Shown: piece after piece, positions 17,288-47,745 of the stretch
How positions within the stretch are numbered: position 1 is the stretch's first letter
Layout of the letters: every line of letters starts with the position of its first letter
Source of the DNA: a virus
Lineage: Duplodnaviria > Caudoviricetes
IMG/VR virus record: IMGVR_UViG_3300047561_000814
Coordinates: 40,478 to 104,477 of that record
Reading direction: 5' to 3' (one strand)
Length of the DNA: 64,000 bases
Translations under genes and position numbers: made by a program
The notes under the pieces: generated by a model
Databases searched by the model: none
Told to the model about the DNA's origin: nothing
What the model saw: only the letters and a program-made list of their open reading frames with translations

Positions 17288-17315
17288 CAACCTGGGCATG
17301 TTGCAAAACTGCCTA
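17288..17315 (+). ncRNA. pseudoknot motif copy (3' of hsp20)
   Basis: CAAC-CUGGGCAU-GUUG-CAAAAC-UGCCUA; P1 CAAC/GUUG, P2 UGGGCA/UGCCUA. Confidence 0.7.
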
Positions 17316-17352
17316 TTTTTTGATATACTTAGATATAACCATAGGAGATTTA

Positions 17353-17526
17353 ATGCCAAGAGATGACTACAGATGTTCTATTTGTTCTTCACAAATTGAA
17401 TTTGAAAGATCAATTGGTGATGACAAATATCCAATATGCTGTAATGAATCTATGCAAAAAGTATGGAGTTCACCTGCTGCAATTTTTCGGGGTAATGGAT
17501 TTTACTCAACTGACAACAGAAAGTAG
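17353..17526 (+). CDS. FmdB-family zinc-ribbon protein
   Basis: MP..DYRCSIC..F.GNGFYSTD. Confidence 0.75.
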   Translation: MPRDDYRCSICSSQIEFERSIGDDKYPICCNESMQKVWSSPAAIFRGNGFYSTDNRK

Positions 17527-17799
17527 ATGTATAATATGAGTATGACTAATATTGTTGAAGATCATCCAAGCGTAGTTTCAAAAAAGTATATACTAAATGC
17601 CAGTGATCGTTGCGATAAATGTACTGCTCAAGCCTTAATTAAGGTTAAGGGCTTGTCGGGAGAGTTAACATTTTGCAGTCATCATTATGAAAAAATAATG
17701 AATAGTTCTGAATCACATAATAAAATGATGGCTTTTTTAGTAGAAATTCTTGATGAGCGTGAAAAACTTATTAAAGACAAACCAGTGGGAGGCATATAA
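17527..17799 (+). CDS. zinc-binding hypothetical protein
   Basis: DRCDKC.AQA..LTFCSHH. Confidence 0.6.
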   Translation: MYNMSMTNIVEDHPSVVSKKYILNASDRCDKCTAQALIKVKGLSGELTFCSHHYEKIMNSSESHNKMMAFLVEILDEREKLIKDKPVGGI

Positions 17800-18365
17800 T
17801 GTTATACAATAAAGAAATTTTAGATTTTAGATTTTCTTACATTAAAAACTATAATATTGAAAAAATAAAAAAAATTGTTAAAAATCTTGAAAATGAATGG
17901 TTAGTTGATCATTCTAGGCAAGATATGTTTTATGTACATAGATATACAAACTCATACATTATAAATAAAGTTTCGCTTGACTGGAAACAAGGAGAGCCAT
18001 TGCAGTCAATAAATAAATTAGAATCAACAGAACTTTCAGAACTTGCATTAGAAATTGCTTGTGATTTAGAAAAACAAATTGATGGAAAAATGGGTCAAGT
18101 TTTATTTACAAAACTTCCTGCAAAAAAAATTATTGATCCTCACGAAGACCATGGAGATTATTTACACTGTGTTGCACGTCATCACATTCCAATTATTACA
18201 AATTTAGGGGTAAGGTTTATTATAGATGGAGAAGGCCGACATGTTCCAGAGGGTGAGTGCTGGGAAATAAATAATAACAAAACACATGCAGTTGAAAATA
18301 ATGGAGAAGAGGACCGAATTCATCTTTTAATTGACATAATACCAAATAAATATTTAACAGTATAA
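17799..18365 (+). CDS. aspartyl/asparaginyl beta-hydroxylase-like 2OG-Fe(II) oxygenase
   Basis: HED, RHHIPIITN, WEINN.KTHAVEN.G..DRIHL. Confidence 0.8.
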   Translation: MLYNKEILDFRFSYIKNYNIEKIKKIVKNLENEWLVDHSRQDMFYVHRYTNSYIINKVSLDWKQGEPLQSINKLESTELSELALEIACDLEKQIDGKMGQVLFTKLPAKKIIDPHEDHGDYLHCVARHHIPIITNLGVRFIIDGEGRHVPEGECWEINNNKTHAVENNGEEDRIHLLIDIIPNKYLTV

Positions 18366-18389
18366 ATAATTAAAAAGAAATGGAGAAAA

Positions 18390-18797
18390 ATGTACGAATA
18401 CTTTGTTAGAGAAGTAAAAAATGTTGTTGATGGAGACACCATTGACGTAGTTATTGATTTAGGGTTTGATATTTTATTTGAATCCCGTGTTCGTTTGGCT
18501 GGTATTGATACGCCAGAGTCACGGACAACAGATAAGGCTGAAAAGGCTCTTGGTCTTGAGGCTAAGGAATATTTAAAAAAACAACTTAAGGATGCTAAGT
18601 CAGTTGTCATTCGTACAGAAAAAATGGATTCATCAGAAAAGTATGGTCGTATTCTTGGTTGGGTTTATGTTAATGGGGAATCAGATTCCGTAAACAATAA
18701 AATGATTAAAGATGGTTATGCTTGGGGATATCTTGGTGATACAAAAATTAAAGATTTTGAAATTCTTAAAAAGGCTAGATCAAAGTCTGGTAAATGA
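18390..18797 (+). CDS. thermonuclease (SNase-like)
   Basis: VVDGDTI, RVRLAGIDTPE, KYGRIL. Confidence 0.9.
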   Translation: MYEYFVREVKNVVDGDTIDVVIDLGFDILFESRVRLAGIDTPESRTTDKAEKALGLEAKEYLKKQLKDAKSVVIRTEKMDSSEKYGRILGWVYVNGESDSVNNKMIKDGYAWGYLGDTKIKDFEILKKARSKSGK

Positions 18798-19066
18798 AAA
18801 ACGTTTTTTATTTTACAGCAGACTGGTGTAGTCCTTGTAAAAAAACAAGACCAGTTGTTGAGGAATTAAAAAAAGAAGGTTTTCAATTTCAAATGATAGA
18901 TGTTGATTACGAACAACTTTTGGCTAAACAGTTTCAGGTTAAATCAATTCCTACATTTATTTTATTAGAAGACGGCAAAGAACTTGATCGTGTAACTGGG
19001 GCACAAACAAGGGCAGAGTTGGAGAACTTTATTAATTATGAAAAAATTATTCAAGAGAATATTTAA
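18794..19066 (+). CDS. thioredoxin
   Basis: WCSPC, SIPT. Confidence 0.88.
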   Translation: MKNVFYFTADWCSPCKKTRPVVEELKKEGFQFQMIDVDYEQLLAKQFQVKSIPTFILLEDGKELDRVTGAQTRAELENFINYEKIIQENI

Positions 19067-19415
19067 TCCAGATGGGAAAAGCATGAGTTCAGATGAAAAT
19101 GAAATGATTGAAAAGTTGATCCTTGAGGGTGGACTAGAGGTTGCGGGTATTGATTCTGAAAACGGATCATTCCTATATTCATTTACACCTAAAATTAAAG
19201 AACTAATGCCAGAACTTTATAATGATCATCTTAATAGAGTCAATGCTGAGATACTTTCTTTATGGGAAAGAGCCTACGTAGACATAGATTTTTTGGCAAA
19301 AGAGCCAGTGGTAACTCTTACAGATAAGTCTTTTGATCCAGTAGAAATGTCAAAACTACGCAAGCAAGACGTTTGGGCTATAGAAGAACTTAAACGCCTT
19401 ACTCGTAAAAAATAA
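19038..19415 (+). CDS. hypothetical protein
   Basis: Overlapping ORF in the operon. Confidence 0.55.
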   Translation: MKKLFKRIFNPDGKSMSSDENEMIEKLILEGGLEVAGIDSENGSFLYSFTPKIKELMPELYNDHLNRVNAEILSLWERAYVDIDFLAKEPVVTLTDKSFDPVEMSKLRKQDVWAIEELKRLTRKK

Positions 19416-19433
19416 GTCTGATATAATAAAAGC

Positions 19434-20201
19434 ATGAGTCATGTTGTAGAAGGCGATTTCGTAATGTTTGTTCATGAAGATGATGGAATTATGGCTGGTC
19501 GTGTTGAATATGTTATGACTAATCCTGGCTTACTTGGTATTCCTGGCTCTGAATACTCAATGGAATATGCTGAAGATGATAAACCAGTCATTGTTCGTGC
19601 TTATAAAGAAGAAGATGGCGCATGGGAAGAACAGCCATACGTTTTCTATCATCGCATGTCAGAAGTTGTGAAGATTGAATCACTATCTGTATCTGTTGAT
19701 ATGGTAATGGAAATTGGATCAAGTGGAACTGGAATTCCAACAATGCCATCGCAATCCGATATGGAAAACATGTATGCTGTTCAAATAGGAAAATCTTATA
19801 ACTCAGATAATCAAGATGAAGATAAATGGGATAACATGGAAAAAAAGTGCTGGGTTGGATATGAACAACGTGGCATGAAAGACAAGGGTGGACGAATGGT
19901 TCCTAATTGCGTTCCTGTTGGCAAATTAAATGAAATGGATGACAACATGGGAAAAGCAAAACCAAAATATGAAGACTTTATTAAACCAAGAAGTGGTGGA
20001 ACTGAGCCATCTAATCCAAAACTTTATGCAACAGTTGTTCAAGCAGCAAAAGATAAGTTTGACGTTTATCCATCTGCAGTAGCAAATTCCTGGGTAGTGC
20101 AAGAATATAAGCGTCGTGGTGGCACATACAAATCAGAATCAAAATCTACAACCAAAAGTATTTGGGGTGGAGCATTTGATCCTTTGACATTGGAAAAATA
20201 A
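19434..20201 (+). CDS. hypothetical mosaic protein
   Basis: Contains CWVGY..VPNCVP and YPSAVANSWVVQEYK modules; TGnTATAAT 6 nt upstream. Confidence 0.6.
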   Translation: MSHVVEGDFVMFVHEDDGIMAGRVEYVMTNPGLLGIPGSEYSMEYAEDDKPVIVRAYKEEDGAWEEQPYVFYHRMSEVVKIESLSVSVDMVMEIGSSGTGIPTMPSQSDMENMYAVQIGKSYNSDNQDEDKWDNMEKKCWVGYEQRGMKDKGGRMVPNCVPVGKLNEMDDNMGKAKPKYEDFIKPRSGGTEPSNPKLYATVVQAAKDKFDVYPSAVANSWVVQEYKRRGGTYKSESKSTTKSIWGGAFDPLTLEK

Positions 20202-20359
20202 TGTCTAAAAAATCTTCAGGATCTTATTTTAAAAATTACGGGTTTAATCCAATACAAATTAAAGACGGCAGAATTGTTCGTTTAAGAAAAGATGGTAGTG
20301 TTAAAGCGGACTTAGGTCCATATCCAAAAACAAAGATAGGGGTAACTCATGGCAAATAA
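20201..20359 (+). CDS. 52-aa basic protein (below the ORF-track cutoff)
   Basis: MSKKSSGSYF..GVTHGK; TAATG overlap. Confidence 0.5.
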   Translation: MSKKSSGSYFKNYGFNPIQIKDGRIVRLRKDGSVKADLGPYPKTKIGVTHGK

Positions 20360-20453
20360 AGAACAAAAAGGTAATGCTAATAAAAAGAAAGAGCCAAAGA
20401 TGACTCTTAAAGAAAAACGTGCTGTTAAGCAAGAAAAAAAGAAATCAAAATGA
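20349..20453 (+). CDS. 34-aa Lys-rich peptide
   Basis: MANKEQKGNANKKKEPKMTLKEKRAVKQEKKKSK; ggggt RBS. Confidence 0.5.
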   Translation: MANKEQKGNANKKKEPKMTLKEKRAVKQEKKKSK

Positions 20454-20549
20454 ATACATTTTATTTCTTGCATTCTTTAGTAATAGGTTTGTTAATGATT
20501 GGATCATTTTTTTGGGGTAAGTCTTATGAAACAAATAGGGTAAAGAAAA

Positions 20550-20918
20550 ATGGCTGATACATACACACCTACTTCAGGTATGAAGGCTGCTGCTCGTCGT
20601 GCTTTAAAATGGAAAGCAGATGGCAAGGCAACTGGTGCAGGAACTCCAGTAGGTTGGGGTAGAGCAACAGATATTGTAAATGGATCTGCTATGTCTCTTA
20701 GTACTGTTAAGAGAATGTATTCTTTTTTTTCCCGTCATGAGGTAGATAAAAAGGGTAAGGGTTTTTATTCTGGTCCAGATTTTCCATCTAATGGAAAAAT
20801 TATGTGGGATGCTTGGGGTGGCGATGCAGGATTTTCATGGAGCCGTGCAATTGTAGAAAGAGAAAAAAAGAAAGTAGAAAAGGTTTGGCAGGGAACTGCC
20901 TTTGATCTAAGAAAGTAG
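20550..20918 (+). CDS. conserved phage hypothetical protein
   Basis: GTPVGWGRA..RMYSFFSRHE..WGGDAG. Confidence 0.65.
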   Translation: MADTYTPTSGMKAAARRALKWKADGKATGAGTPVGWGRATDIVNGSAMSLSTVKRMYSFFSRHEVDKKGKGFYSGPDFPSNGKIMWDAWGGDAGFSWSRAIVEREKKKVEKVWQGTAFDLRK

Positions 20919-21088
20919 TGGGTATATGGATAATTTAGAAAAAAATGAGTTAATTCAGTTAATATCATTTTATAAGCAAAAACTATCTGACGTAGAACTA
21001 GAGTCATTAAAACTACAACTTGAAGTTAATAAACTTAACTCTATGGTTTTAGGCTTGAGCAAAGAATCAGTTAAAAAAACTAAATAAA

Positions 21089-21517
21089 ATGGAATATTTA
21101 TTAGTTATGGGCTTGACATTGCTGGCCTACTGGTCTATAATTAAGATATCAAATAAAAAAAGAATATCATTTTTAAAAAAAATTAAATATCGGCAAAGCA
21201 ATATTCATGAAATGATTAAAGATGTTATTCCAAAAGAAAGGTTTGAGAAGCCTAAGTTTATTACTCAATCTCAAAGACATATTCAAAAAAATATGTTAAA
21301 AGTAGTAATAGAAAAAGATAAAGCATATTGGATAATGGATAATGTTTTTTATACTGCTGATGCTATTAATGGCAGGGTAGATGAAAATACAGCAAAACCA
21401 TTAGATATTGAAAATATGCCAACAAAAGAATTAGATAATATGTTATCAATACTTGATGACTTAAAACAAGGAGTGGGACCAAATGATAGTGGCAGTACAG
21501 GGAACAAAAGAGTTTAA
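21089..21517 (+). CDS. N-terminally anchored membrane protein
   Basis: One N-terminal TM segment. Confidence 0.55.
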   Translation: MEYLLVMGLTLLAYWSIIKISNKKRISFLKKIKYRQSNIHEMIKDVIPKERFEKPKFITQSQRHIQKNMLKVVIEKDKAYWIMDNVFYTADAINGRVDENTAKPLDIENMPTKELDNMLSILDDLKQGVGPNDSGSTGNKRV

Positions 21518-21833
21518 CCAGTACAACATTTTTCTACGTGCCATGAGTGTTGCCTTATCAGGAATGAAAGATGAAGATAGTGAGTTCATTATTTATTCCG
21601 CTGGCCCATCAAAAATAAATAATTTTGTTTCAGAGTTCTCTAATTTATCAGAACGTGGAATGAAGGCAAGAGGCAAAAAAATTAAATTTTATAATGTAGC
21701 ACCCGTATGGTTGAGTGAGCATATAAAGCAAATTAATTATTTTGCTTTTTTAAGTAATCCAAAAGAACCAAAATCAAAATTGGTTTTAACTGCAGAAGCA
21801 AACAACATTGACGTTGGTCTTTTTAAGTATTAG
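21483..21833 (+). CDS. hypothetical protein (SLOG/DUF2493-like start)
   Basis: MIVAVQGTKEF N-terminus. Confidence 0.45.
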   Translation: MIVAVQGTKEFNQYNIFLRAMSVALSGMKDEDSEFIIYSAGPSKINNFVSEFSNLSERGMKARGKKIKFYNVAPVWLSEHIKQINYFAFLSNPKEPKSKLVLTAEANNIDVGLFKY

Positions 21834-21841
21834 GAGAAAAA

Positions 21842-22051
21842 ATGATTATTAGAAGTTTAAAGACAATGGAAAAAATTGTAAATAAAAACGAAAACCTTAT
21901 TTGGCATGCGTGGGATGTAATTGATTTAAAAGAATCTGATACAGCAAAAACCTCTCCTATGGGCATTAGAGTAAAAAACAAATGGTATCTGCATAGAATT
22001 TATAAGCCTGGTCGCAATGGTTGGGATATACCAAATAAGTATAAGGATTAA
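21842..22051 (+). CDS. hypothetical protein
   Basis: RBS aggag. Confidence 0.55.
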   Translation: MIIRSLKTMEKIVNKNENLIWHAWDVIDLKESDTAKTSPMGIRVKNKWYLHRIYKPGRNGWDIPNKYKD

Positions 22052-22053
22052 CC

Positions 22054-22338
22054 TTGAAACAGCATTTATGGAAAGACCAAGCCTTGTGTTTGGGAACGGA
22101 TAACAACGCATTTTTTGATAAATACGAAGACCATGAGGGATCTAGAAGAGACATTGATTCACTTTGCAAACAGTGCCCAGTTAGAAAAGTATGCTTTGCT
22201 AATGGCGTTTCAGGAAAAGAGTGGGGTGTTTGGGGTGGGGTATACTTAGAAGGTGGAGAAGTTTCAAGAGAGTTTAATAAACATAAAACCAAAGAAGATT
22301 GGTCTAAAACATGGCAATCACTAACAATGGAGGAATAG
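22054..22338 (+). CDS. whiB: WhiB-family Fe-S transcription factor
   Basis: W..ALC..C..CPV..C..GVWGG. Confidence 0.9.
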   Translation: MKQHLWKDQALCLGTDNNAFFDKYEDHEGSRRDIDSLCKQCPVRKVCFANGVSGKEWGVWGGVYLEGGEVSREFNKHKTKEDWSKTWQSLTMEE

Positions 22339-22342
22339 TAAA

Positions 22343-23098
22343 ATGATTATACAAATTATAGGTTTACCAGGATCTGGCAAAACGACATTAGCAAAAGAAT
22401 TAGTAAAAAAAATTAATGCAATTCATCTCAATGCTGATGAAGTAAGATCTGATTTAAATAAAGACTTAGGTTTTACCTTAGAAGATAGGATTGAGCAGTC
22501 TCGTCGTATGGGGGCTTTGTCAAGACTTCTTTCAAATCAGGGGTATGACGTTGTTGTAGACTTTGTTAATCCAACAAAAGAAACAAGAGATGCTTTTGGA
22601 AAACCAGATAGACTTATTTGGATGAATACATTTGAAAAAAGTAAATATCCAGATACAGACAAAATGTTTCAATATCCAGAAACTTTTGATATGTGTTTTG
22701 ATAAAACAATTCCAATGGAAGAAAGAATTAACATAATCATTGAAGGTTTTGGATTACATGACTGGAGCAAGCCAACTACATTAATGCTTGGTCGTTATCA
22801 ACCATGGCATGAAGGACATCATGCTCTTTATACAGAAGCGCAAAATCGTACAGAGCAAGTAATGGTTGGCGTTAGGGATACACATGGAACAACAGAGAAA
22901 GATCCTCTTACCTTTGATGAAGTAAGAGAATATATATCAAAAGATTCATACATGGATAAAGCAATGGTAATTAAAATGCCAAACATTACAAATATTGTTT
23001 ATGGTCGTGATGTAGGATATAAGATTGAACAAGTAGATTTGGGGGCAGACATTCATGCTATTTCGGCTACTGAAAAACGTAAAGAATTGGGTATTTAG
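22343..23098 (+). CDS. adenylyl-sulfate kinase-like domain fused to an HxGH nucleotidyltransferase
   Basis: GLPGSGKTT, LNADEVR..DLGF..DR; C-terminal GRYQPWHEGH. Confidence 0.75.
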   Translation: MIIQIIGLPGSGKTTLAKELVKKINAIHLNADEVRSDLNKDLGFTLEDRIEQSRRMGALSRLLSNQGYDVVVDFVNPTKETRDAFGKPDRLIWMNTFEKSKYPDTDKMFQYPETFDMCFDKTIPMEERINIIIEGFGLHDWSKPTTLMLGRYQPWHEGHHALYTEAQNRTEQVMVGVRDTHGTTEKDPLTFDEVREYISKDSYMDKAMVIKMPNITNIVYGRDVGYKIEQVDLGADIHAISATEKRKELGI

Positions 23099-23163
23099 TT
23101 TTGGGAAAGGCATTGCAGATGCAGAAGATAGATTTGTTAAAAGCATGTTTGAAGAAGATATAG

Positions 23164-23600: not shown

Positions 23601-23852
23601 TAAAACAATTTAGTCTGTTTTTTATTTGTAAAATAAAATCACATAACTTTGTTGACGCTGGTTCTTGTCCATTTACTGGTAAAACCTATGTAGCCTGCCT
23701 AAGATGTGGAGCAACAATAACAAAATGAAAAAAAAAATAATTATATTAGTATTATCAACTATATCTGCTCTTGTTGCAGTTAGTTTATTTTTTGCTTCAA
23801 GGCTTAGTCAATTATCAGACTTAGATTTATTTGACATTGAAGAAGATGATTA

Positions 23853-32519: not shown

Positions 32520-32590
32520 TAGGACTGGAAGGTAACGCTCCTTCTTCTCAGGATTAAAAGTCCTGAGCATCACTTTAATGCTTCAATCCC
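32520..32590 (-). tRNA. tRNA-Lys(TTT), atypical T-loop
   Basis: cagga-ctTTTaa-tcctg; T-arm gaagg-agcgtta-ccttc. Confidence 0.75.
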
Positions 32591-41544: not shown

Positions 41545-41983
41545 TCATAGCATGAATCCACTCCATGAATTCTTCTTTAGCAAAGTCCTCAGCATCTTCA
41601 TCTGCTACTTCCATGCCCATTTCTTTCCAGGAATCTAAATAAATATCTAACTCAAGAGTCACTCTAATACGATTCATTAGTCAAAGTACCCTTCTGCCCA
41701 TAGACCTTGTAGGAAGTCTTGTGCCATAACTAAATAATTATGAATAGCGGGGTTTTGGTCTGCATCAAGCATGAAGTCAGCAGTTTTAACTCCATAAACC
41801 ATGTTTTCTAAATCTTCCAGTGTATAGCCTAACATTATCCTACCTCTATTCCTGCATACTTAGCAATAGTGTTTAGTGTAATATGGATATGGCAGTCACA
41901 ATCAATACCGCCCATGTTTTCCTCAAACTCTAGGTGTGAGAAGTTATCATCATAGATTTCATTTATTAGGTCATTTATGGTGT

Positions 41984-42202
41984 TCAAGCATATTCCTTTT
42001 CATAGGCAGGAAGTGAGGTTACTACCAATTCTAACATTTGTGCAGGGTATCTGTCAAGTACCCAATTAAGAGCCTCTCCAGCAGTTTTAAAATCAGAGGC
42101 GGTGCTACTGTATCCATACCCCTGGATAGTTGCTTCCCAGCAATCAATCCCACCAGGAGATACGGCATAGTTCATTTCATAGATTTCTACTTTTAGGGTC
42201 AT
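41984..42202 (-). CDS. hypothetical early protein
   Basis: TTGACA promoter directly upstream. Confidence 0.55.
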   Translation of the reverse strand: MTLKVEIYEMNYAVSPGGIDCWEATIQGYGYSSTASDFKTAGEALNWVLDRYPAQMLELVVTSLPAYEKEYA

Positions 42203-42322
42203 GTATTAATTATCCTACAAACTGGGAAAAATGTCAAGTATCCGTAATGAGAAAATGGGAAAAATATCATTTCAACGTAATAAGATTATAACAAAAATGT
42301 TATCAAACTCGGGGCCCCTTTG

Positions 42323-42396
42323 CGGCTCTGATGGGACTTGAACCCACGATCTCTACCGTGACAGGGTAGCGCATTAACCAACTATGCTACAGAACC
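42323..42396 (-). tRNA. tRNA-Asp(GTC)
   Basis: ctacc-ctGTCac-ggtag; T-loop ttcaagt. Confidence 0.92.
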
Positions 42397-42403
42397 AAAA
42401 TAG

Positions 42404-42433
42404 TGAGCAGTTTTAAATCATGCTCAGGATTTT
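42404..42433 (-). ncRNA. pseudoknot motif copy
   Basis: AAAUC-CUGAGCAU-GAUUU-AAAAC-UGCUCA, between the DUF932 stop and tRNA-Asp. Confidence 0.75.
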
Positions 42434-42437
42434 TTTA

Positions 42438-43454
42438 CTAAACTAGTTGCAAAGTATTTTGCACAATAGTTAGCAAACGATTTTTCTCTGCATTGGTAGC
42501 AGGGTCAAATCCAGAAGCAGCAGCAAACATGCTTTCGCCATTTGCACTACGAGCAGAACGATACCAGTCTAAACGCTCAGTTAGCGCATTAAACGCACCC
42601 CAAGCATTACCACTAATCATTCCGTTAAATTCACCAGTGTAAATATCGTTAATCATATCTACCTTGTTTTCCCATTTCTTTACAGCACCCTTAGTATCTT
42701 TATCAGGCTTAGGGTAAGCAGCAAGAATAATGTTATTGAAATCTTGTGCGGAGATTTCTTTTGCTATCATGGCATGAGCCATCTTATCAAATTCGTCCAT
42801 GTAAGAATTAGCCATGCCTAGTGCCTGACGAGCAACAGCAATTTTGCCCTCAGCGGTTTGGGTATGACGGATTTTGAAAGATTGCTTAACGCCATCTTTC
42901 TTGCGTGTGCGGTTAAGTGCAACATTAAGAGTATTAGCACACACAACACGAACTGGTGTTATGCTTGCTTGAATAGCGATTGAACCATCATGTGATGTGT
43001 TGATGAGTAAATAAGTCTTTACAACATCAGCAACGCCATTAGGGTCTAATACGGTTTCACGCTCTAATGCAAGAGAGCCAAATACCACACGCCCACCACT
43101 AATTGAACCAGCGGTTTCCCAACGCCCACCACCATCAAGAATGTTATCGCCAAAGGCAAATAAATCCTCATTTTGTAGTGGAACATAACGCTGACCAACA
43201 ATTCCCAAAACATCAGTTTGAGATTTATCAGTAGGGTTAGTGCGAACAACATATTGATATTGTTTATCAGATACTAGGGTAGTGGGGATTTCTAAATCCT
43301 CTAGTCTAACATTCCAATTATTAAGATTAGCAGCAACAAGCATTTCACTTGTATTTTTTTCAGTATCAAATACTGTGCCTAGATTATGCCAAGCAGGTTC
43401 TCTAAATGAAGCAAAACTTGCTACGCCATTTTGAGTTTCTAAATCATGAGCCAT
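42438..43454 (-). CDS. DUF932 / TIGR03299-like phage-plasmid protein
   Basis: PAWHNLG, Y.PLQN, ETAGS..GG, NTSHDGS, TPVRVVCANTL, W.AFNA.TE. Confidence 0.85.
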   Translation of the reverse strand: MAHDLETQNGVASFASFREPAWHNLGTVFDTEKNTSEMLVAANLNNWNVRLEDLEIPTTLVSDKQYQYVVRTNPTDKSQTDVLGIVGQRYVPLQNEDLFAFGDNILDGGGRWETAGSISGGRVVFGSLALERETVLDPNGVADVVKTYLLINTSHDGSIAIQASITPVRVVCANTLNVALNRTRKKDGVKQSFKIRHTQTAEGKIAVARQALGMANSYMDEFDKMAHAMIAKEISAQDFNNIILAAYPKPDKDTKGAVKKWENKVDMINDIYTGEFNGMISGNAWGAFNALTERLDWYRSARSANGESMFAAASGFDPATNAEKNRLLTIVQNTLQLV

Positions 43455-43480
43455 TTTTATCCTTTCGGTTGTTTTAACTA

Positions 43481-43509
43481 AGTCTAGCAGTCATGACTGA
43501 CAATGTCAA
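43481..43509 (-). promoter_or_regulatory. promoter with PafBC/RecA-NDp-type motif
   Basis: TTGACA-t-TGTCAG-tcatgactgc-TAGACT. Confidence 0.75.
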
Positions 43510-43592
43510 CTAGGACTGGGGAAAATGGTTTAATCTTCTTAAATGGTATAAATCGGACATTTGGGGCCCCCCGAGTTTTTCTGCAGAAATAT

Positions 43593-43621
43593 AGAGCCTT
43601 TTTAAATCATGCTCAGGATCT
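43593..43621 (-). ncRNA. pseudoknot motif copy
   Basis: AGAUC-CUGAGCAU-GAUUU-AAAAAG-GCUC. Confidence 0.7.
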
Positions 43622-43679
43622 TTGGCCCCTTATTTATACTGGCTGTACCGTCGCCAGTTTTGATAGCCCCCTATCAAAT

Positions 43680-44159
43680 TTAGTAGTGGTCCTCTAATGA
43701 AACTTCGTCCACAGTTAAGTCTGCGTCGTAGTCATATGAATTAAGTTCTGCTTCAATTGAAACATTGCTTAAATCAAAGTCAGCAATTTCTGACATTGGG
43801 ACGCTGATTGTTCCGCTGAATGAAACTGTACCTTGTACTTCAATTTCCTTGACTGGATTAACACCAAAGAGTTCACATAGCGCTACAAGAACTTCTTCTT
43901 TAGAATAGTTAGGGTCATACCATTCTACGATATTGTCTTCAAGTTGACTTACTGTTCCCTGCAGGCTACGCAATAAATCTTCTTTAGCACGTGCACTATG
44001 AAGGTCCCATTCAAGTTCTGTTACCTTGGATGTTAAATATGTTGGCTCTTCAGGAGCAGCATATGTTCCCGCAATAGCCTTGTACGTTACAAGAAGATTT
44101 GGGTTGTACGGTACTTCTAGTTTATCAATTGTTACTGCATCGCTGATATTGGTTGACAT
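43680..44159 (-). CDS. hypothetical early protein
   Basis: Start moved to MSTNIS because the promoter lies at 44197-44218. Confidence 0.65.
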   Translation of the reverse strand: MSTNISDAVTIDKLEVPYNPNLLVTYKAIAGTYAAPEEPTYLTSKVTELEWDLHSARAKEDLLRSLQGTVSQLEDNIVEWYDPNYSKEEVLVALCELFGVNPVKEIEVQGTVSFSGTISVPMSEIADFDLSNVSIEAELNSYDYDADLTVDEVSLEDHY

Positions 44160-44196
44160 TGTGGGGCCTCTTCCTTGTTGTTTGGTTATTAATCTA

Positions 44197-44218
44197 ATCA
44201 TAGCAGCGGTCACTGACA
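44197..44218 (-). promoter_or_regulatory. promoter with PafBC/RecA-NDp-type motif
   Basis: TGTCAG-tgaccgctgc-TATGAT. Confidence 0.72.
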
Positions 44219-44266
44219 AATGCAAGTTGTAAGCCTAGGGTTCTTAATTAGTCTCACATAATGAGA

Positions 44267-44282
44267 TGTGATTTAGATCACG
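44267..44282. promoter_or_regulatory. CRP/GlxR-like box
   Basis: TGTGA-tttaga-TCACG. Confidence 0.6.
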
Positions 44283-44316
44283 TTGCCTCGGGGGATTTTT
44301 GCAGGGCAATTAAAAA

Positions 44317-44345
44317 TAAGCCTTTTTGATTCATGCTTAGGAATT
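44317..44345 (-). ncRNA. pseudoknot motif copy
   Basis: AUUC-CUAAGCAU-GAAU-CAAAAAG-GCUUA (compensatory changes in both stems). Confidence 0.72.
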
Positions 44346-44414
44346 TACACCTCTTACAGTTAGTGCGAACTGTGCTCTATAGTATTTCTATGATCGCCCT
44401 AATCAGCCTGGCGA

Positions 44415-44442
44415 AAGCAGTTTGAAATCATGCTCAGGATTT
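44415..44442 (-). ncRNA. pseudoknot motif copy
   Basis: AAAUC-CUGAGCAU-GAUUU-CAAAC-UGCUU. Confidence 0.7.
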
Positions 44443-44446
44443 TTTA

Positions 44447-44617
44447 TTATTTAGTTGTGCTTACCATAGCAAGACGACGAGAGCCGTTTGCTAGTTGTAA
44501 TGAAACCCTAGTAAGTTTAGAATTAAGTGGTGAGAACTTTACAATTCTACCTGTAATTCCAGTTTTGCTAGTGGTGAATAAATCACCTAGTTGATATGTG
44601 TATCCGCCTAGTGTCAT
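44447..44617 (-). CDS. 56-aa SH3/KOW-like protein (below cutoff)
   Basis: MTLGGYTYQLGDLFTTSKTGITGRIVKF..; aagga RBS; own TTGACT-17-TAGACT promoter. Confidence 0.65.
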   Translation of the reverse strand: MTLGGYTYQLGDLFTTSKTGITGRIVKFSPLNSKLTRVSLQLANGSRRLAMVSTTK

Positions 44618-44711
44618 GATTTTCCTTTTCTGTTTGGGTGGTTTGCTTACTTACTTAGTCTAACATTTTTTAGGGGGGAAGTCAATTACCCTTCCCCACC
44701 TAATTATCTAA

Positions 44712-45134
44712 TTAAAGATAACGAGCAATAGCGTTATAGGTGCTAGTGCTAACTGTTTCCTCGTCTGTCATTTTAAGGATACGGATAGCGTTTTCCATTT
44801 CCTCTTTTTGCTCACGATAAGTGTGCTGATGTAGTTGCTCAAAATTACGCTCAGGCTCTTTAGGGAACTCGCCTTCCTTAACTGTAATATCAAAATCAAC
44901 ATTAAGGTTTTGGCTGTATGAGCGATAGTTGGTGCGTAGGTTTTCTGCCTTAGCAACATTAGCGATAGCAAAAACAAATAATTCTTTTTTCCAAGCCTCT
45001 ATTGCGGTTTGGAACTTTGCTTCGTTTTCGTCTTGCTTTTTATAGTTAGCCTCTAACTCTGCTAATCTATTTGTTAAGGCTGTAATAACCTTAGCAGTAG
45101 CGATTTTTACGCTGATGGGTTTGCTTCTTGCCAT
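44712..45134 (-). CDS. coiled-coil early protein
   Basis: aagga RBS. Confidence 0.65.
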   Translation of the reverse strand: MARSKPISVKIATAKVITALTNRLAELEANYKKQDENEAKFQTAIEAWKKELFVFAIANVAKAENLRTNYRSYSQNLNVDFDITVKEGEFPKEPERNFEQLHQHTYREQKEEMENAIRILKMTDEETVSTSTYNAIARYL

Positions 45135-45181
45135 TTGTTTTGGTTTCCTTTTCGTTTGGTGTAGTTGATGGGGGTTTGAGT

Positions 45182-45211
45182 TGAGCAGTTTTAGTTGTCA
45201 TGCTCAGGACA
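45182..45211 (-). ncRNA. pseudoknot motif copy
   Basis: UGUC-CUGAGCAU-GACA-ACUAAAAC-UGCUCA. Confidence 0.75.
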
Positions 45212-45230
45212 TTTAGCCACTAGGCTAAGA

Positions 45231-45398
45231 CTATGACTTTGCTGTCCAAGTTGTCCAGCGAGTTGCGCCATTAACCTCTAACTTAACACGAACATTACCA
45301 TTTGCTTGTGGCACGATTTCTGTAATTGTTCCAGTTGCCTTTGACTTTTGGCTTGTGTAGGTATCTCCTACTTTGTAGATTGCGTTTGCTACTGACAT
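45231..45398 (-). CDS. 55-aa SH3/KOW-like protein (below cutoff)
   Basis: MSVANAIYKVGDTYTSQKSKATGTITEI..; aaggag RBS. Confidence 0.65.
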   Translation of the reverse strand: MSVANAIYKVGDTYTSQKSKATGTITEIVPQANGNVRVKLEVNGATRWTTWTAKS

Positions 45399-45500
45399 GG
45401 TTCTCCTTTGGTTGTTTTTGCTTACTGTATAAGTCTAACATTTTTTGGCTAAAAATACAAATCGTATTTCTAATAATCTCATATTTTGAGATGTGATATC

Positions 45501-45516
45501 TGTGATGTATATCACA
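45501..45516. promoter_or_regulatory. CRP/GlxR box (perfect)
   Basis: TGTGA-tgtata-TCACA. Confidence 0.65.
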
Positions 45517-45619
45517 CCACGATACCGAAACGGACAAAACGGACATTACTTATGCCCAAGACCTGCGAATAAGACCATGACAAATAAGATAGTTAGAATT
45601 GTTAATTCCAAGATTACCC

Positions 45620-46348
45620 CTATTTTTTAGATGATGAAAAAACTATGTCGCTCTTAGAGTATACACACAATCCGCAAGAAACGCAAGCAGAGCCAGCGCT
45701 TGATATAAGTGGAATGGCTTTTAAGTTTTCAGGACACTTAGCGCCAGGTTTATTAAATAACTCTTTCATATCTGCTTGACCTATTGCAAAATTCTTTGCA
45801 AGGTATGCAAGGCGTATGCCATGATCTTTTTTAAGACTAACGCCTATCTCTTTATTCTCGCTGTCTGTAGAATAGTATAAAGATAGATTAGGAATATTCT
45901 TAAGCATTAGTGCTGCAGACTGTACTCTAGTGTATACCCAAAACTTTATATCTGTATTGTTAAGGATGATATATTGCCATGCTCTAGTGTACTTATCATT
46001 AAAGAAGTCACCGTCCCAGTGAATGCGAAATAGCAATGGCGCATTTTTCTTTTCACAATCTTTTTTAAAATCAGCAATCATGTTTTCTAATAAATCAACC
46101 ATGGTAGGTTCATCTGCGTCTTTCAATAACTCCCAATTGTGTAGGAGGTTAGTCTTTACTCCTTTGAATAACTTTTCAAGTTTTCCCGCGTAGCAAACAC
46201 TTTCACAAATATTAGTGGCACCAGGGCATGAGTAAGCCTTTCCAGCAGGGAGGCCGAATGTGTTCGCAATTGCGGCTTGCTTTCCATTTTTTGTAACAAG
46301 ATTAGCAACCTTTCTATCATGTGATCTTTTTAGTTGTGGTGTTGTCAT
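45620..46348 (-). CDS. GP88-family Cys-rich protein (mycobacteriophage gene 88-like)
   Basis: CPGA..C...CYA, FRIHWDGDF, WVYTR, CP..C..C.LC. Confidence 0.75.
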   Translation of the reverse strand: MTTPQLKRSHDRKVANLVTKNGKQAAIANTFGLPAGKAYSCPGATNICESVCYAGKLEKLFKGVKTNLLHNWELLKDADEPTMVDLLENMIADFKKDCEKKNAPLLFRIHWDGDFFNDKYTRAWQYIILNNTDIKFWVYTRVQSAALMLKNIPNLSLYYSTDSENKEIGVSLKKDHGIRLAYLAKNFAIGQADMKELFNKPGAKCPENLKAIPLISSAGSACVSCGLCVYSKSDIVFSSSKK

Positions 46349-46429
46349 ATGAAAATTCTAGCAGAATATGGGAAAAATATCAAGTCGCCTTAATTGGTAC
46401 AAATCGGACAAATCGCCCTCGGGCGCCTC

Positions 46430-46681
46430 TTAGAGCAACATCATTAAATCAAATTGGTCGTATTCACCAACTTGAATTATTTCACTTTCACCAAAATCAT
46501 TGACAACTTCTAAAGTGTATCCGTCAGGTAGTGAAATTATATCTGCAATAGACACAACCTCATCGTCAATTAAAATACAATCATCAACCATTAACTGTCC
46601 TGCAGTTAAGATATCAACTTTTACGTAGTCCACAATCTGAATAGTATCATCATTTTCTAGATCAATCACATTACTCCTCAA
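46430..46681 (-). CDS. hypothetical acidic protein
   Basis: ORF. Confidence 0.5.
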   Translation of the reverse strand: MRSNVIDLENDDTIQIVDYVKVDILTAGQLMVDDCILIDDEVVSIADIISLPDGYTLEVVNDFGESEIIQVGEYDQFDLMMLL

Positions 46682-46752
46682 TTTCTGCTAGTGTTTCCCA
46701 TAGAATAGGTTCTAGTATTAGTGCAACTGCGTCTAACTTATCTTGCAAGTCC

Positions 46753-47037
46753 TTACTCATCTACTGGCTCAATAAACCAATGCAGGTGGTGTCCATCAAC
46801 AATGAATTTTGCTGGTGCTTCTGACTGACCACGCCAAGTAATCTGAAAGTCATTTACTTTTGGCAAGGTAATCATACGGTCATAGTCCTCATCATAGTAA
46901 GCGTCAATAGCCTCAATACAAGGTTGCACCATTTCAGAAGGCACTGGTGGATAATGATTACCACGCAAGTGATATAGAATCTGAGTTTCTAAATCTAATA
47001 CTGAATCCTTGATACCTAGTGCTGTTACGGAACCCAT
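46753..47037 (-). CDS. conserved actinophage hypothetical protein
   Basis: HLRGNHYPPVP..HHL. Confidence 0.65.
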   Translation of the reverse strand: MGSVTALGIKDSVLDLETQILYHLRGNHYPPVPSEMVQPCIEAIDAYYDEDYDRMITLPKVNDFQITWRGQSEAPAKFIVDGHHLHWFIEPVDE

Positions 47038-47038
47038 A

Positions 47039-47248
47039 TTATTTCACACTCACATTTCCGTTGCGATAGAAGGTCTTAGTATACATCTTACCCGTAGGGT
47101 CTGACAAGTTGTAGGTTGCGTATTCTTTAGCGTCGCCAAAGTCCACACACTTAGTCCAAGCATTGACTGCCTCTAGCATATCGCTAACTCGCAGGGTATG
47201 AATTAACTCTCCATCATATGAAGTAGTAAGTGAATAAGTATATTCCAT
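47039..47248 (-). CDS. hypothetical early protein
   Basis: aaggag RBS. Confidence 0.6.
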   Translation of the reverse strand: MEYTYSLTTSYDGELIHTLRVSDMLEAVNAWTKCVDFGDAKEYATYNLSDPTGKMYTKTFYRNGNVSVK

Positions 47249-47445
47249 TATGCGTTCTCCTTAGTAGAAAATAAAGCGTGGGCAGTAAATAATTCATCAG
47301 CAGGGATATTGTAAGGATTACACTCACACGCCCATACATCGTAGTCTATCTCATTACCTGCAAATTGCCAACCTTGTCCGTAGCACATGTCGCAAGCAAG
47401 TATTTCCATTATGGCATTTTTAACTTTTCCCATTAGCAATACCAA
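47248..47445 (-). CDS. small Cys-containing early protein
   Basis: CDMC..CECNP. Confidence 0.55.
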   Translation of the reverse strand: MVLLMGKVKNAIMEILACDMCYGQGWQFAGNEIDYDVWACECNPYNIPADELFTAHALFSTKENA

Positions 47446-47584
47446 TCCTCTCCTAAAGCCTTTTCAGCACACCAATCAGTATAGTGCTTATCGCACATAG
47501 TTTCAACATTAGAGTTAATCATGTTGATATTATTTTTTGTAGCGTAACAAATATTACACATAGTTTTCCTTTCGTTATATCTTT

Positions 47585-47606
47585 ATCCTATCAGACTGGA
47601 CTGACA
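47585..47606 (-). promoter_or_regulatory. promoter with PafBC/RecA-NDp-type motif
   Basis: TGTCAG-tccagtctga-TAGGAT. Confidence 0.72.
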
Positions 47607-47644
47607 AAATCCAATTAGACACGAAGAATCTGGACAATCTGGAG

Positions 47645-47718
47645 TGTGATCTTAACCACATAATGGCCCTGTGGATAACCCTGTGGAAAACGCCCCGAGG
47701 ATTTTAGAACAAATGTTC
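47645..47718. promoter_or_regulatory. cluster of CRP-like, DnaA and LexA-like boxes
   Basis: TGTGAtcttaaCCACA 47645-60; TGTGGATAA 47670-78; TGTGGAAAA 47682-90; GAACaaatGTTC 47707-18. Confidence 0.6.
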
Positions 47719-47745
47719 GGACAGTTTTAGATCGTGTCCAGGATT
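47718..47745 (-). ncRNA. pseudoknot motif copy
   Basis: AUC-CUGGACAC-GAU-CUAAAAC-UGUCCG (P2 GGACA/UGUCC, compensatory). Confidence 0.72.

What the first reader, a model, noticed from the sequence alone, without database searches (positions are those of the whole stretch)
17288..47745. Seven-copy covarying H-type pseudoknot placed 3' of genes
Seen on the sense strand: P1(3-5 bp)-CURRRCAY-P1'-A-rich linker-P2'. Copies are at 17288-315 (+), and 42404-433, 43593-621, 44317-345, 44415-442, 45182-211, 47718-745 (-). P1 covaries (AAAUC/GAUUU, UGUC/GACA, AUUC/GAAU, CAAC/GUUG) and P2 covaries (UGAGCA/UGCUCA, UAAGC/GCUUA, GGACA/UGUCC, UGGGCA/UGCCUA), while CCU..CAYG and the A-tract stay fixed. Four copies begin within about 7 nt of a stop codon, and one of these also ends 7 nt before tRNA-Asp. 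It is not a hairpin+U terminator. Inferred roles: exonuclease roadblock (PNPase or RNase J), processing signal, protein/ligand-binding element, or ToxI-like decoy RNA. I cannot match it to an RNA family I know.
Basis: partly seen in the sequence, partly recalled or inferred. Interest (0 to 1): 0.85.

Follow-up and report, generated by a model that had tools for sequence, protein, structure and literature searches.

The report
Phage gene-end RNA pseudoknot family
The seven repeats are real copies of a tiny knotted RNA fold that this freshwater phage, like many unrelated phages, places a few bases after stop codons, probably to mark and protect the ends of its messages, although nobody has tested this.

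Summary
Observation confirmed. All seven copies exist at the stated coordinates, on the sense strand. They are the only seven in the 104-kb phage genome (7 found, 0.92 expected).

Both helices of the H-type pseudoknot are supported by compensatory changes. This holds in 263 copies from 80 related phage contigs and in 63 distinct copies from other phages.

No Rfam family matches.

The element is a self-contained fold of about 28 nt. Its first base pair lies at least 4 nt (mode 5) after the upstream stop codon, behind at least 38 unrelated genes.

A quarter of copies are followed by a U-tract. Others abut a tRNA by 3-8 nt.

The same knot occurs in cultured phages of Mycobacterium, Arthrobacter, Synechococcus, Bacillus, Streptococcus, Paracoccus and Vibrio.

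Best reading (about 0.45): a mechanical roadblock that caps the 3' end of the upstream message.

The closest published relative is the plant-virus coremin / xrRNA-WCC pseudoknot, but coremin's required second hairpin is absent here.

This scan has already found the family on other DNA. I found no paper describing it. Its function is untested.

The parts
17288..17315 (+). Pseudoknot copy 1. P1 is CAAC/GUUG, L1 is CU, P2 is GGGCA/UGCCU (plus U-A), L3 is CAAAAC. It starts 6 nt after the hsp20 stop (17279-17281) and is followed directly by U6.
   Evidence: 44.3 and 39.9 bits; Hsp20 phrog_432
42404..42433 (-). Pseudoknot copy 2. P1 is AAAUC/GAUUU and P2 is UGAGCA/UGCUCA. It lies 4-5 nt after the DUF932 gene's UAG-UAA stops and 7 nt before tRNA-Asp.
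   Evidence: 50.4 and 50.9 bits; the same gene-knot-tRNA order is seen in 14 of 15 relatives
42322..42396 (-). tRNA-Asp (GUC) that abuts copy 2. Its 5' processing would leave the knot at the 3' end of the DUF932 message (inferred).
43593..43621 (-). Pseudoknot copy 3. P1 is AGAUC/GAUUU and P2 has only 4 bp (GAGC/GCUC). It lies 58 nt after the stop of the 181-aa ORF. A GC-rich islet and a promoter-like site (43509-43481) follow it.
44317..44345 (-). Pseudoknot copy 4. P1 is AUUC/GAAU and P2 is UAAGC/GCUUA. It is followed by U5. No ORF lies between it and copy 5, 70 nt upstream.
   Evidence: relatives lack the copy 5 to copy 4 interval (joint 44316 to 44446)
44415..44442 (-). Pseudoknot copy 5. 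P1 is AAAUC/GAUUU and P2 is GAGCA/UGCUU. It lies 4 nt after the UAA-UAA stops of a 56-aa ORF.
45182..45211 (-). Pseudoknot copy 6. P1 is UGUC/GACA, L3 is longer (ACUAAAAC), and P2 is UGAGCA/UGCUCA. It lies about 19 nt after a 55-aa ORF and 47 nt before the next gene, with no promoter-like site between, so it is probably internal to an operon.
47718..47745 (-). Pseudoknot copy 7. P1 is AUC/GAU and P2 is (U)GGACA/UGUCC(G). It lies 4-5 nt after the stop of a 48-aa ORF.

Best explanation
The seven elements are RNA. Each is a compact H-type pseudoknot of about 28 nt, transcribed as part of phage messages. The phage is a roughly 104-kb WhiB-encoding phage, so its host is probably a freshwater actinobacterium.

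Fold: P1 (3-5 bp, closed by an invariant C-G), L1 = CU (invariant), P2 (5-6 bp, GAGCA/UGCUC type), one junction nucleotide, P1 3' strand, an A-rich L3 ending in AAAC, then the P2 3' strand.

Proposed mechanism: the knot is a mechanically robust roadblock that marks and protects the 3' end of the upstream cistron. It sits as close to the stop codon as a terminating ribosome allows: the first pair is at least 4 nt, most often 5 nt, after the stop. A real RNA end is made a little further downstream in one of three ways: termination at a following U-tract, RNase P cutting at an abutting tRNA, or another cut. 3'-to-5' exonucleases then trim back to the knot and stop.

Shown here: the fold (covariation), strand, position, spacing, U-tract association, tRNA association and wide distribution.

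Inferred: the exonuclease stop, its direction, and the tertiary contacts (L3 adenines in the P1 minor groove, L1 in the P2 major groove).
For: 1. Fold. Both helices covary in alignments that were not fitted to them. L1 is C-U in 70 of 70 and 63 of 63 distinct copies. The two P2 pairs next to the junction hardly vary, as expected if tertiary contacts hold them.

2. Strand. All 263 of 263 hits in 80 relatives' loci are on the gene-sense strand.

3. Autonomy. Nothing is conserved outside -6..+24 of the CCU anchor, and the flanks are G-poor.

4. Tie to the upstream gene end.
- In 285 contexts the first paired base lies 4, 5, 6 or 7 nt after the stop in 19, 40, 25 and 12 cases, and below 4 nt in only 4.
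- 123 of 291 copies lie 4-10 nt after a stop, while the distance to the next start is broad.
- This holds behind at least 38 unrelated upstream protein families, none with spacing under 4.

5. Real RNA ends nearby.
- TTTT occurs within 12 nt after the knot in 25% of copies against 1-4% at control positions. For unique 14-mers the counts are 55 of 223 against 6 of 232.
- Copies with a U-tract are less often followed within 60 nt by the next ORF (18% against 36%).

6. tRNA association. A tRNA starts 3-8 nt after the knot in 43 of 280 contexts (Asp, Leu and Val lineages). Arthrobacter phage Molivia has SSB stop, knot, tRNA-Gly.

7. Published support. Knots of this type are known ribosome and exonuclease obstacles. 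Coremin/xrRNA-WCC stalls Xrn1 and scanning ribosomes and drives -1 frameshifting, also in an E. coli screen (PMC10520033 passages; PMC10321173 Results).
Against: - No experiment exists, and no read-level RNA ends were available. The RNA runs were contigs only, and they run through the knots.
- An exonuclease stop would protect the upstream gene equally well from any distance, so the tight spacing to the stop is not explained by this model alone.
- About 55% of copies lie more than 10 nt from a stop.
- Copy 4 follows no ORF.
- The published analogue blocks a 5'-3' enzyme, not a 3'-5' one.
- The knot is AU-rich and short, so its stability without cofactors is uncertain. Nested folding finds only P2, with z-scores between -1.35 and +0.77.
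- Counts are over related sequences and are not independent events.
Confidence: 0.45

Rival explanations
1. xrRNA-like 5'-to-3' roadblock. The knot stops RNase J (or 5'-end-dependent RNase E scanning) coming from upstream. It thereby shields the RNA behind it, or leaves a stable downstream fragment, as coremin does with Xrn1.
For: - It closely resembles coremin/xrRNA-WCC in stem 1 (..UC/GA..), the first loop base (a pyrimidine), the ..UUAAAC linker and the GAG/CUC pairing.
- Cultured-phage hits are mostly from hosts that I recall having RNase J: Mycobacterium, Arthrobacter, Bacillus, Streptococcus, Synechococcus, Paracoccus.
- There is no hit in 5,426 E. coli genomes, which is a weak negative.
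- Earlier follow-ups in this scan read some copies this way.
Against: - Coremin needs a second hairpin right after the spacer for Xrn1 resistance. No such hairpin is enriched here: 49% against 47-61% in controls.
- Position is tied to the upstream stop, not to the downstream start.
- Knots that sit 3-8 nt before tRNAs would shield something that RNase P removes anyway.
- U-tract enrichment fits a 3' end.
- A variant occurs in a Vibrio phage group, whose host I recall lacking RNase J.
Confidence: 0.2
2. Ribosome-directed element. The knot sits at the mRNA entrance of a ribosome whose A site holds the stop codon. There it acts on termination: it blocks read-through, sliding or re-initiation, or tunes termination or recoding.
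For: - Sharp spacing (minimum 4, mode 5 nt) across unrelated genes. This is the range I recall for frameshift stimulators.
- Coremin-type knots stall ribosomes and promote frameshifting.
- Second stops, in frame or out of frame, are frequent in the spacer: 43 of 123 have another in-frame stop within two codons.
Against: - None of the four close window copies has a slippery heptamer before its stop (read by eye).
- Tandem stops argue against programmed read-through.
- More than half of copies lie over 10 nt from a stop, and copy 4 has no ORF.
- The spacing is equally explained by avoidance of ribosome collisions.
Confidence: 0.12
3. Transcription terminator proper. The knot replaces the usual GC hairpin of an intrinsic terminator for the host RNA polymerase.
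For: - U-tract enrichment after the knot, and 3 of 7 window copies are followed by U4-U6.
- Most copies are followed by 100-200 nt of spacer, which leaves room for a promoter.
Against: - 75% of copies lack a U-tract.
- 89 of 291 copies have the next sense ORF within 60 nt. For example, copy 6 has none of the promoter-like sites listed before the next gene.
- RNA-library contigs cross the knots, although DNA carry-over is not excluded.
- In Streptococcus phage Javan271 the knot follows a canonical hairpin-plus-U terminator.
Confidence: 0.1
4. DNA-level junction. The repeats mainly serve as short homology or recombination sites that let gene cassettes be swapped, like the promoter-early stem-loops of T4-type phages.
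For: - Joints between cassettes in relatives' contigs fall at knots: 42428/42430/42433, 43619, 44316 to 44446, and 45210.
- Ends of homology with 80 relatives are 2.9 times enriched within 15 nt of the knots (91 of 630 against 5.1% expected).
Against: - Recombination needs identity. Here pairing is kept while sequence changes, in two interleaved helices.
- The element has strict sense orientation.
- Homology breaks fall in intergenic DNA anyway, so the enrichment is weak evidence.
- Swapping is better seen as a by-product.
Confidence: 0.05
5. Ligand switch or specific decoy: a riboswitch aptamer of the small pseudoknot kind, or a ToxI-like antitoxin or protein decoy.
For: - Its size and topology resemble small pseudoknot aptamers and ToxI units (recalled).
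- One sub-threshold SAM_alpha hit overlaps copy 3 (15.1 bits against a gathering score of 36, E 8.5).
Against: - There are 4-7 copies per genome behind unrelated genes, not ahead of a regulated gene.
- The junction has one nucleotide and it varies (U/A/C).
- There is no Rfam hit at gathering thresholds.
- Copies are dispersed and differ in both stems within one genome, unlike tandem, near-identical antitoxin repeats.
- The element occurs in phages of at least five bacterial phyla.
- The phage has no ToxN gene (that search also matched none of its control genomes, so it says little).
Confidence: 0.03

Closest known systems
Coremin motif (xrRNA-C) and its Watson-Crick form xrRNA-WCC, found in beny-, cucumo-, picorna-like and other eukaryotic RNA viruses (PMC10520033 passages; PMC10321173 Results)
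   Same: - A small hairpin whose stem ends ..UC/GA..
- A first loop base that is a pyrimidine.
- Last loop bases A then D (A, G or U).
- A linker ..UUAAAC after the stem; some phage copies read GAC-GUUAAAC-U exactly.
- Loop bases GAG pairing with CUC downstream (WCC form).
- Usual location just behind a coding region.
- A known action as an obstacle to exonucleases and ribosomes.
   Different: - The loop has 8 nt with U, not G, at position 2.
- Stem 2 has 5-6 bp instead of 3.
- L1 is CU.
- The second hairpin that coremin needs for Xrn1 resistance is not enriched.
- The host enzymes are bacterial.
- The copies lie in DNA phages, several per genome.
- Common descent is unlikely; convergence is the simpler reading.
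Compact frameshift-stimulating pseudoknots of luteoviruses (BWYV type). This is recalled; PMC10321173 notes that their dimensions are comparable to coremin's.
   Same: - Size of about 28 nt.
- A short stem 1.
- A 2-nt L1 that begins with C.
- One junction nucleotide.
- An A-rich L3.
- A position a few nucleotides downstream of the codon in the A site.
   Different: - There is no slippery heptamer, and the codon in the A site is a stop.
- There is no extended frame downstream.
- There are many copies per genome.
- The BWYV knot did not resist Xrn1.
REP / BIME extragenic palindromes of enterobacteria (recalled; not read here)
   Same: - A short, dispersed, structured repeat just after stop codons.
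- Orientation follows transcription.
- They stabilise the upstream message against 3' exonucleases.
- REPs close to stops are reported to interfere with terminating ribosomes.
   Different: - REPs are plain GC-rich hairpins of the host chromosome, present in hundreds of copies.
- The element here is an AU-rich pseudoknot of phages, present in a few copies.
PeSLs, the promoter-early stem-loops of T4-type phages
   Same: Short repeated regulatory modules that bound small accessory genes and coincide with cassette-swap junctions.
   Different: - PeSLs combine a promoter with a hairpin and are conserved in sequence.
- Here there is no promoter inside the element, and the pairing covaries.
Small pseudoknot riboswitch aptamers (preQ1-I, SAM-II/SAM_alpha)
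   Same: H-type topology with an A-rich 3' linker and a size of about 30-50 nt.
   Different: - There is no Rfam match at gathering scores. The only sub-threshold hit is SAM_alpha at E 8.5.
- There is no conserved junction pocket.
- The position is behind genes, not ahead of them.
- There are several copies per genome.

Membership tests
Coremin / xrRNA-C (including xrRNA-WCC) | Hairpin 1 with a stem of about 4 bp | tested here: met
   P1 has 3, 4, 5, 6 or 7 pairs in 41, 115, 104, 17 and 5 of 285 contexts. The top pairs U-A and C-G match coremin.
Coremin / xrRNA-C (including xrRNA-WCC) | Loop 1 follows the consensus YGAD (or YGNNAD; longer loops are tolerated) | tested here: not met
   The loop is C-U-GAGC-A-U. 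Y at position 1 and A-D at the end fit. Position 2 is U in 133 of 133 distinct copies, not G.
Coremin / xrRNA-C (including xrRNA-WCC) | Conserved spacer of 8-10 nt (..UUAAAC..) whose 3' part interacts with loop 1 | tested here: met
   AAA is 97-99% conserved and followed by C in 77% of copies. The 3' part pairs with the loop by Watson-Crick pairs that covary.
Coremin / xrRNA-C (including xrRNA-WCC) | A second hairpin directly after the spacer, required for Xrn1 resistance | tested here: not met
   A hairpin of 4 or more bp starting within 8 nt occurs in 49% of 280 contexts, against 47-61% at control positions and in shuffles. The mean folding energy is not lower.
Coremin / xrRNA-C (including xrRNA-WCC) | Stalls a 5'-3' exoribonuclease just upstream of hairpin 1 | not testable with these tools
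   This needs an enzyme assay or 5'-end mapping.
Any Rfam 15 family | A score at or above the family's gathering threshold | tested here: not met
   Only 7 tRNAs pass in the whole window. At E up to 10 in 42000-48000, nothing but a 15.1-bit SAM_alpha hit (gathering score 36) touches a copy.
Intrinsic (hairpin plus U-tract) terminator | A stable stem directly followed by a U-tract | tested here: inconclusive
   A U-tract within 12 nt occurs in 25% of copies against 1-4% in controls. 75% lack one. The 'stem' is a 5-6 bp AU-rich helix inside a knot. The terminator scan lists none of the seven copies.
Type III antitoxin RNA (ToxI-like) | A tandem array of near-identical repeats next to a ToxN-type endoribonuclease gene | tested here: not met
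   The copies are dispersed over 30 kb and differ in both stems. The phage has no ToxN match, but that search also matched none of its control genomes.
-1 frameshift or read-through signal | A slippery heptamer (or a leaky stop) upstream, and an open frame that continues through or past the structure | tested here: not met
   There is no X XXY YYZ before the stops of copies 1, 2, 5 and 7 (by eye). 43 of 123 close copies have a second in-frame stop within two codons.
Phage 'gene-end pseudoknot' family noted earlier by this scan (unpublished) | A covarying H-type knot of about 27-30 nt a few bases after stop codons and just before tRNAs, in many unrelated phages, absent from Rfam | tested here: met
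   Every listed trait was found independently here. Identity of sequence with the earlier cases could not be checked, because their sequences are not shown.

The most novel reading that the evidence does not exclude
Phages of many bacterial phyla carry a bacterial-world counterpart of the eukaryotic-virus xrRNA. It is a 28-nt triple-helical knot, convergent with plant-virus coremin down to its linker sequence. It works as a universal, protein-independent mechanical stop.

It is placed exactly at the leading edge of the terminating ribosome. As a result the ribosome, 3' exonucleases and perhaps RNase J all halt at it. This gives each cistron a defined, protected end without a classical terminator, and it creates the junctions at which accessory-gene cassettes are exchanged.
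Probability: 0.3. Interest if true: 0.85.

Novelty: new variant of a known kind. Interest (0 to 1): 0.7.

Why it matters
If the knot is a roadblock, it is a new and very small way for bacterial viruses to define and stabilise message ends. It would then be the first exonuclease- or ribosome-stopping pseudoknot class described for DNA phages.

It is widespread: cultured phages of at least seven host genera and hundreds of metagenomic contigs. It is absent from Rfam. It is directly testable in safe laboratory systems (Mycobacterium smegmatis phage Labelle, Arthrobacter phage Molivia).

Its near match to plant-virus coremin would be a striking case of convergence. At 28 nt it would also be a handy part for stabilising transcripts in synthetic biology.

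For annotation, it marks true gene ends and operon sub-structure in uncultured phage genomes.

Tried and rejected
- Rfam at gathering and at E up to 10 gave no family.

- Megablast of 6 kb against GenBank phages gave no match.

- The bacterial genome collection scan with the core pattern gave 120 stretches scattered over all phyla. Only 3 reach E below 0.01 with the profile (L285, L263, L291). That is chance level for 15 fixed bases in 596 Gb, so the host genome as a source of the element is rejected.

- A loose descriptor of my own missed copies 3 and 4 and gave false hits, so I dropped it.

- G.U against A.C counts, meant to tell the strand, were equal (21 against 25), so they are uninformative.

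- RNA-library runs X19-X22 were held only as contigs of relatives at 85-99% identity. No starts or ends could be read, and parts without cover mean nothing.

- Nested folding of the flanks showed no larger conserved structure; z-scores ran from -1.35 to +0.77.

- The second hairpin (coremin's hp2) is not enriched.

- I tested whether neighbouring proteins might be partners. 66 of 85 knot-bearing pattern loci carry none of 12 window neighbour proteins.

- The two small ORFs before copies 5 and 6 looked alike by eye, but BLASTP finds nothing, and Pfam finds nothing.

- ToxN is absent, but that search also matched none of its control genomes.

- The E. coli genomes gave no hit. This is a weak negative, because a 35-nt query in 28 Gb needs a near-exact match.

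- The tRNA-like 3' tail idea (ACCA after the knot) holds for only a minority of copies, so I dropped it.

- Literature. Searches found no paper on this phage element. So did passages of PMC10690425 and of two 2026 preprints.

- Rows left out of counts. Contexts nearer than 120-150 nt to a locus end were dropped. Hits with no CCT within a few bases of the expected model position were to be dropped; one search lost none on this rule. Contexts without a P2 3' strand of at least 4 of 5 pairs were dropped (280 of 291 kept).

Full report
WHAT IS THERE

The window is bases 40478-104477 of a single-contig virus record of 104,477 bp at 35.6% G+C, rated 96% complete. It encodes a terminase, tail-fibre proteins and Hsp20, DUF932 and GP88 proteins, a WhiB protein (48 bits) and seven tRNAs. 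WhiB points to an actinobacterial host. DNA runs that hold the stretch are labelled freshwater or lake metagenomes.

The seven claimed elements are at the stated places. The core CCTRRRCAYG occurs 7 times against 0.92 expected, and 0 of 100 shuffles reach 7. It occurs nowhere else in the genome. All copies lie on the sense strand of the local genes.

THE FOLD

Aligned (A1), the copies read as follows:
- P1 of 3-5 bp, closed by C-G
- L1 = CU
- P2 of 5 bp (GAGCA type), sometimes with a sixth U-A pair
- one junction base
- the P1 3' strand
- an A-rich L3 ending in AAAC
- the P2 3' strand

Copy 3 has only four P2 pairs, and copy 4 has an A.G mismatch.

I built two covariance models, R1 with P1 as its structure and R2 with P2. 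Each finds the seven copies at 37-51 bits. The next hit scores 17-20 bits, lies antisense to tRNA-Lys, and I take it as chance.

To test the fold on sequences not chosen for it, I fetched 80 IMG/VR loci through the neighbouring DUF932 protein.
- R1 finds 263 copies at E up to 0.01, all 263 on the gene-sense strand.
- On the best 150 (70 distinct), 95.7% of cells pair against 84.6% after shuffling (0 of 500 reach it).
- 63 cells carry changes on both sides, against 8.0 expected.
- Sliding the partner by 1-3 columns drops pairing to 22-44%.
- P2 was not part of that model's structure. It is 99.1% paired, with compensatory changes in 3 of 5 pairs.

Conversely, R2 on 100 loci found by a pattern that fixes neither P1 nor the A-tract gives 65 copies (63 distinct). 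In these the three inner P1 pairs are 100% paired, with AU 25, GC 21, CG 8 and UA 7 at one position.

These counts are over related sequences and are not independent events. Even so, the variety of pair types and the slid controls make the pseudoknot secure.

Several positions are invariant or nearly so: L1 (C then U in 133 of 133 distinct copies), the A of the junction-proximal P2 pair, the G that closes P1, and AAA in L3. That pattern is what tertiary contacts in a compact triple-stranded knot would give; the contacts themselves are inferred.

Wobble pairs do not tell the strand (21 G.U against 25 A.C). Gene orientation does. So do loop lengths: a 2-nt L1 and a 5-7-nt L3 suit an H-type knot only in the sense reading (stereochemical rule recalled, not computed).

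WHAT IT IS NOT

No Rfam 15 family reaches its threshold. At E up to 10 the only hit touching a copy is SAM_alpha at 15.1 bits against a gathering score of 36.

Nothing outside positions -6 to +24 of the CCU anchor is conserved. The flanks are G-poor and the 5' flank is A-rich.

WHERE IT SITS

- In 291 non-identical contexts, 123 copies lie 4-10 nt after the stop of a sense ORF of at least 50 aa, and 1 lies at 0-3 nt.
- Measured to the first base that actually pairs, the spacing is 4, 5, 6 or 7 nt in 19, 40, 25 and 12 of 285 contexts. It is under 4 nt in 4.
- The rule recurs behind at least 38 unrelated upstream protein families: DUF932, Hsp20, a 667-aa protein, many small ORFs. None has a spacing under 4.
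- In the window, four unrelated genes are followed at 4-6 nt.
- Second stop codons, in or out of frame, are common in the spacer.
- The distance to the next start codon is broad, with a mode of 100-200 nt. 89 of 291 copies have the next ORF within 60 nt, which is too close for a promoter, so many copies are internal to operons.

Four nucleotides is about what I recall the mRNA channel holding between the A-site codon and the ribosome's helicase entrance (recalled ribosome geometry). The knot therefore sits as near as it can without having to be unwound for termination.

Published work shows that knots of this type stall ribosomes and drive frameshifting, also in E. coli.

SIGNS OF RNA ENDS

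A run of four or more U within 12 nt after the knot occurs in 25% of 280 contexts, against 1-4% at control positions. For unique 14-mers the counts are 55 of 223 against 6 of 232. Copies with a U-tract are less often followed closely by the next ORF (18% against 36% within 60 nt). Window copies 1, 4 and 2 have U6, U5 and U4.

A tRNA starts 3-8 nt after the knot in 43 of 280 contexts: 41 are the orthologous tRNA-Asp, one is tRNA-Leu and one is tRNA-Val. tRNA-Asp follows the DUF932 knot in 14 of 15 relatives checked. Arthrobacter phage Molivia has SSB stop, 6 nt, knot, about 3 nt, tRNA-Gly. RNase P cutting at such a tRNA would leave the knot as the 3' terminus of the upstream message (inferred).

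DISTRIBUTION

Five related complete or near-complete genomes (90-117 kb) carry 4-6 copies each. These cluster in one stretch of 5-6 kb beside DUF932, with 0-1 copies elsewhere.

Of 85 knot-bearing loci found by pattern, 66 share none of 12 neighbouring window proteins, so many other phage lineages carry the knot.

BLAST of two copies against GenBank phages finds the knot mostly in unannotated intergenic DNA. It lies on the sense strand in six of the seven records whose annotation I inspected; the exception is the Vibrio phage D456 group. The records with a match are:
- Mycobacterium phage Labelle
- Arthrobacter phage Molivia
- Synechococcus phages S-EIVl, S-H35 and S-RIM4
- Paracoccus phages ParKuw1 and ParMal1
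- Bacillus phages Edson and WH1
- Streptococcus phages Javan271 and Javan383
- gut Acutalibacteraceae phages
- a Vibrio phage group with L1 = CC, lying antisense to its annotated small ORFs

 R1 hits the expected place in all 7 stretches fetched.

The bacterial genome collection gives only chance-level matches, and E. coli genomes give none.

MOSAIC JUNCTIONS

Contigs of relatives in four RNA libraries join different cassettes at the knots, and they lack the interval between copies 5 and 4. Homology ends with 80 relatives are 2.9 times enriched near the knots. This is weak evidence, because breaks fall in intergenic DNA anyway.

COMPARISON WITH WHAT IS KNOWN

A lead from earlier follow-ups of this scan pointed to the coremin motif. 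I read the papers' passages.

Coremin is a 4-bp hairpin with a YGAD or YGNNAD loop, a spacer ..UUAAAC.., and a required second hairpin. Its Watson-Crick form pairs loop GAG with CUC downstream. It stalls Xrn1 and scanning ribosomes and promotes -1 frameshifting.

The phage knot shares the stem top (UC/GA), the first loop pyrimidine, the closing A-D, the linker and the GAG/CUC pairing. Some copies read GAC-GUUAAAC-U exactly. It differs in three ways:
- It has U, not G, at loop position 2.
- Its stem 2 is longer.
- It lacks any enrichment of a second hairpin (49% against 47-61% in controls).

It therefore works like the knot part of coremin but is not a member of that family.

VERDICT

The element is a real, widespread, uncatalogued phage RNA pseudoknot.

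I rank the readings as follows:
- a 3'-end cap or roadblock for the upstream cistron, 0.45
- a 5'-3' (RNase J) roadblock, 0.2
- a termination-coupled ribosome element, 0.12
- a terminator proper, 0.1
- a recombination junction as the main role, 0.05
- a ligand switch or decoy, 0.03

This scan has already reported the same kind of element on other genomes. My searches found no paper that describes it (passages). Closed supplementary tables may list it.

Noticed in passing
window 22069-22242 (+), inside ORF 22054-22338: A WhiB-family gene (PF02467, 48.4 bits). Together with GP88 (45620-46348, -) it marks this roughly 104-kb freshwater phage as an actinophage.
   Followed up: partly
window 45231-45398 (-) and 44447-44617 (-): Two small ORFs of 55 and 56 aa each sit directly before a knot (copies 6 and 5). 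The 55-aa type is the second most common upstream family in relatives (45 contexts). The two look alike by eye (GD..T..K...TG.I), but BLASTP finds no alignment and Pfam finds nothing.
   Followed up: partly
window about 43565-43577, 47691-47700, 44288-44296 and 42305-42321 (-): GC-rich islets of the CTCGGGG / CCCCGAG kind lie 17-22 nt after copies 3, 7 and 4, and right after tRNA-Asp. They are not conserved at a fixed distance across the 283 relatives' contexts.
   Followed up: partly
window about 43632-43639 and 47749-47756 (-): TATAAATA, the consensus I recall for T4-type late promoters, lies just upstream of copies 3 and 7. In copy 7 it overlaps the stop codon. This may be chance in AT-rich DNA.
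   Followed up: no
window 44316-44446: Copies 5 and 4 stand 70 nt apart with no ORF between them. Relatives' contigs lack this interval (joint 44316 to 44446 in runs X21 and X22). It looks like a remnant of a cassette lost or gained by exchange between knots.
   Followed up: partly
window 32555-32587 (+): A weak eighth model hit (19.7 and 17.3 bits, E about 0.04) lies antisense to tRNA-Lys. It is probably chance.
   Followed up: partly
window 45213-45228 (-): A small hairpin, UUAGCCUAGUGGCUAA, sits directly before copy 6. A near-identical stretch is inserted at a joint in a relative's contig (table 5c).
   Followed up: no
L325 (Streptococcus phage Javan271) about 575-640: Here the knot follows a canonical hairpin-plus-UUUU terminator, and its P2 is weakened by a mismatch. 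This argues that the knot is not merely a terminator substitute.
   Followed up: no
L323 (Vibrio phage D456 group) 595-629: A variant knot with L1 = CC lies antisense to the annotated small ORFs and overlaps the start of one. Either the annotation is doubtful or this copy is oriented unusually.
   Followed up: no
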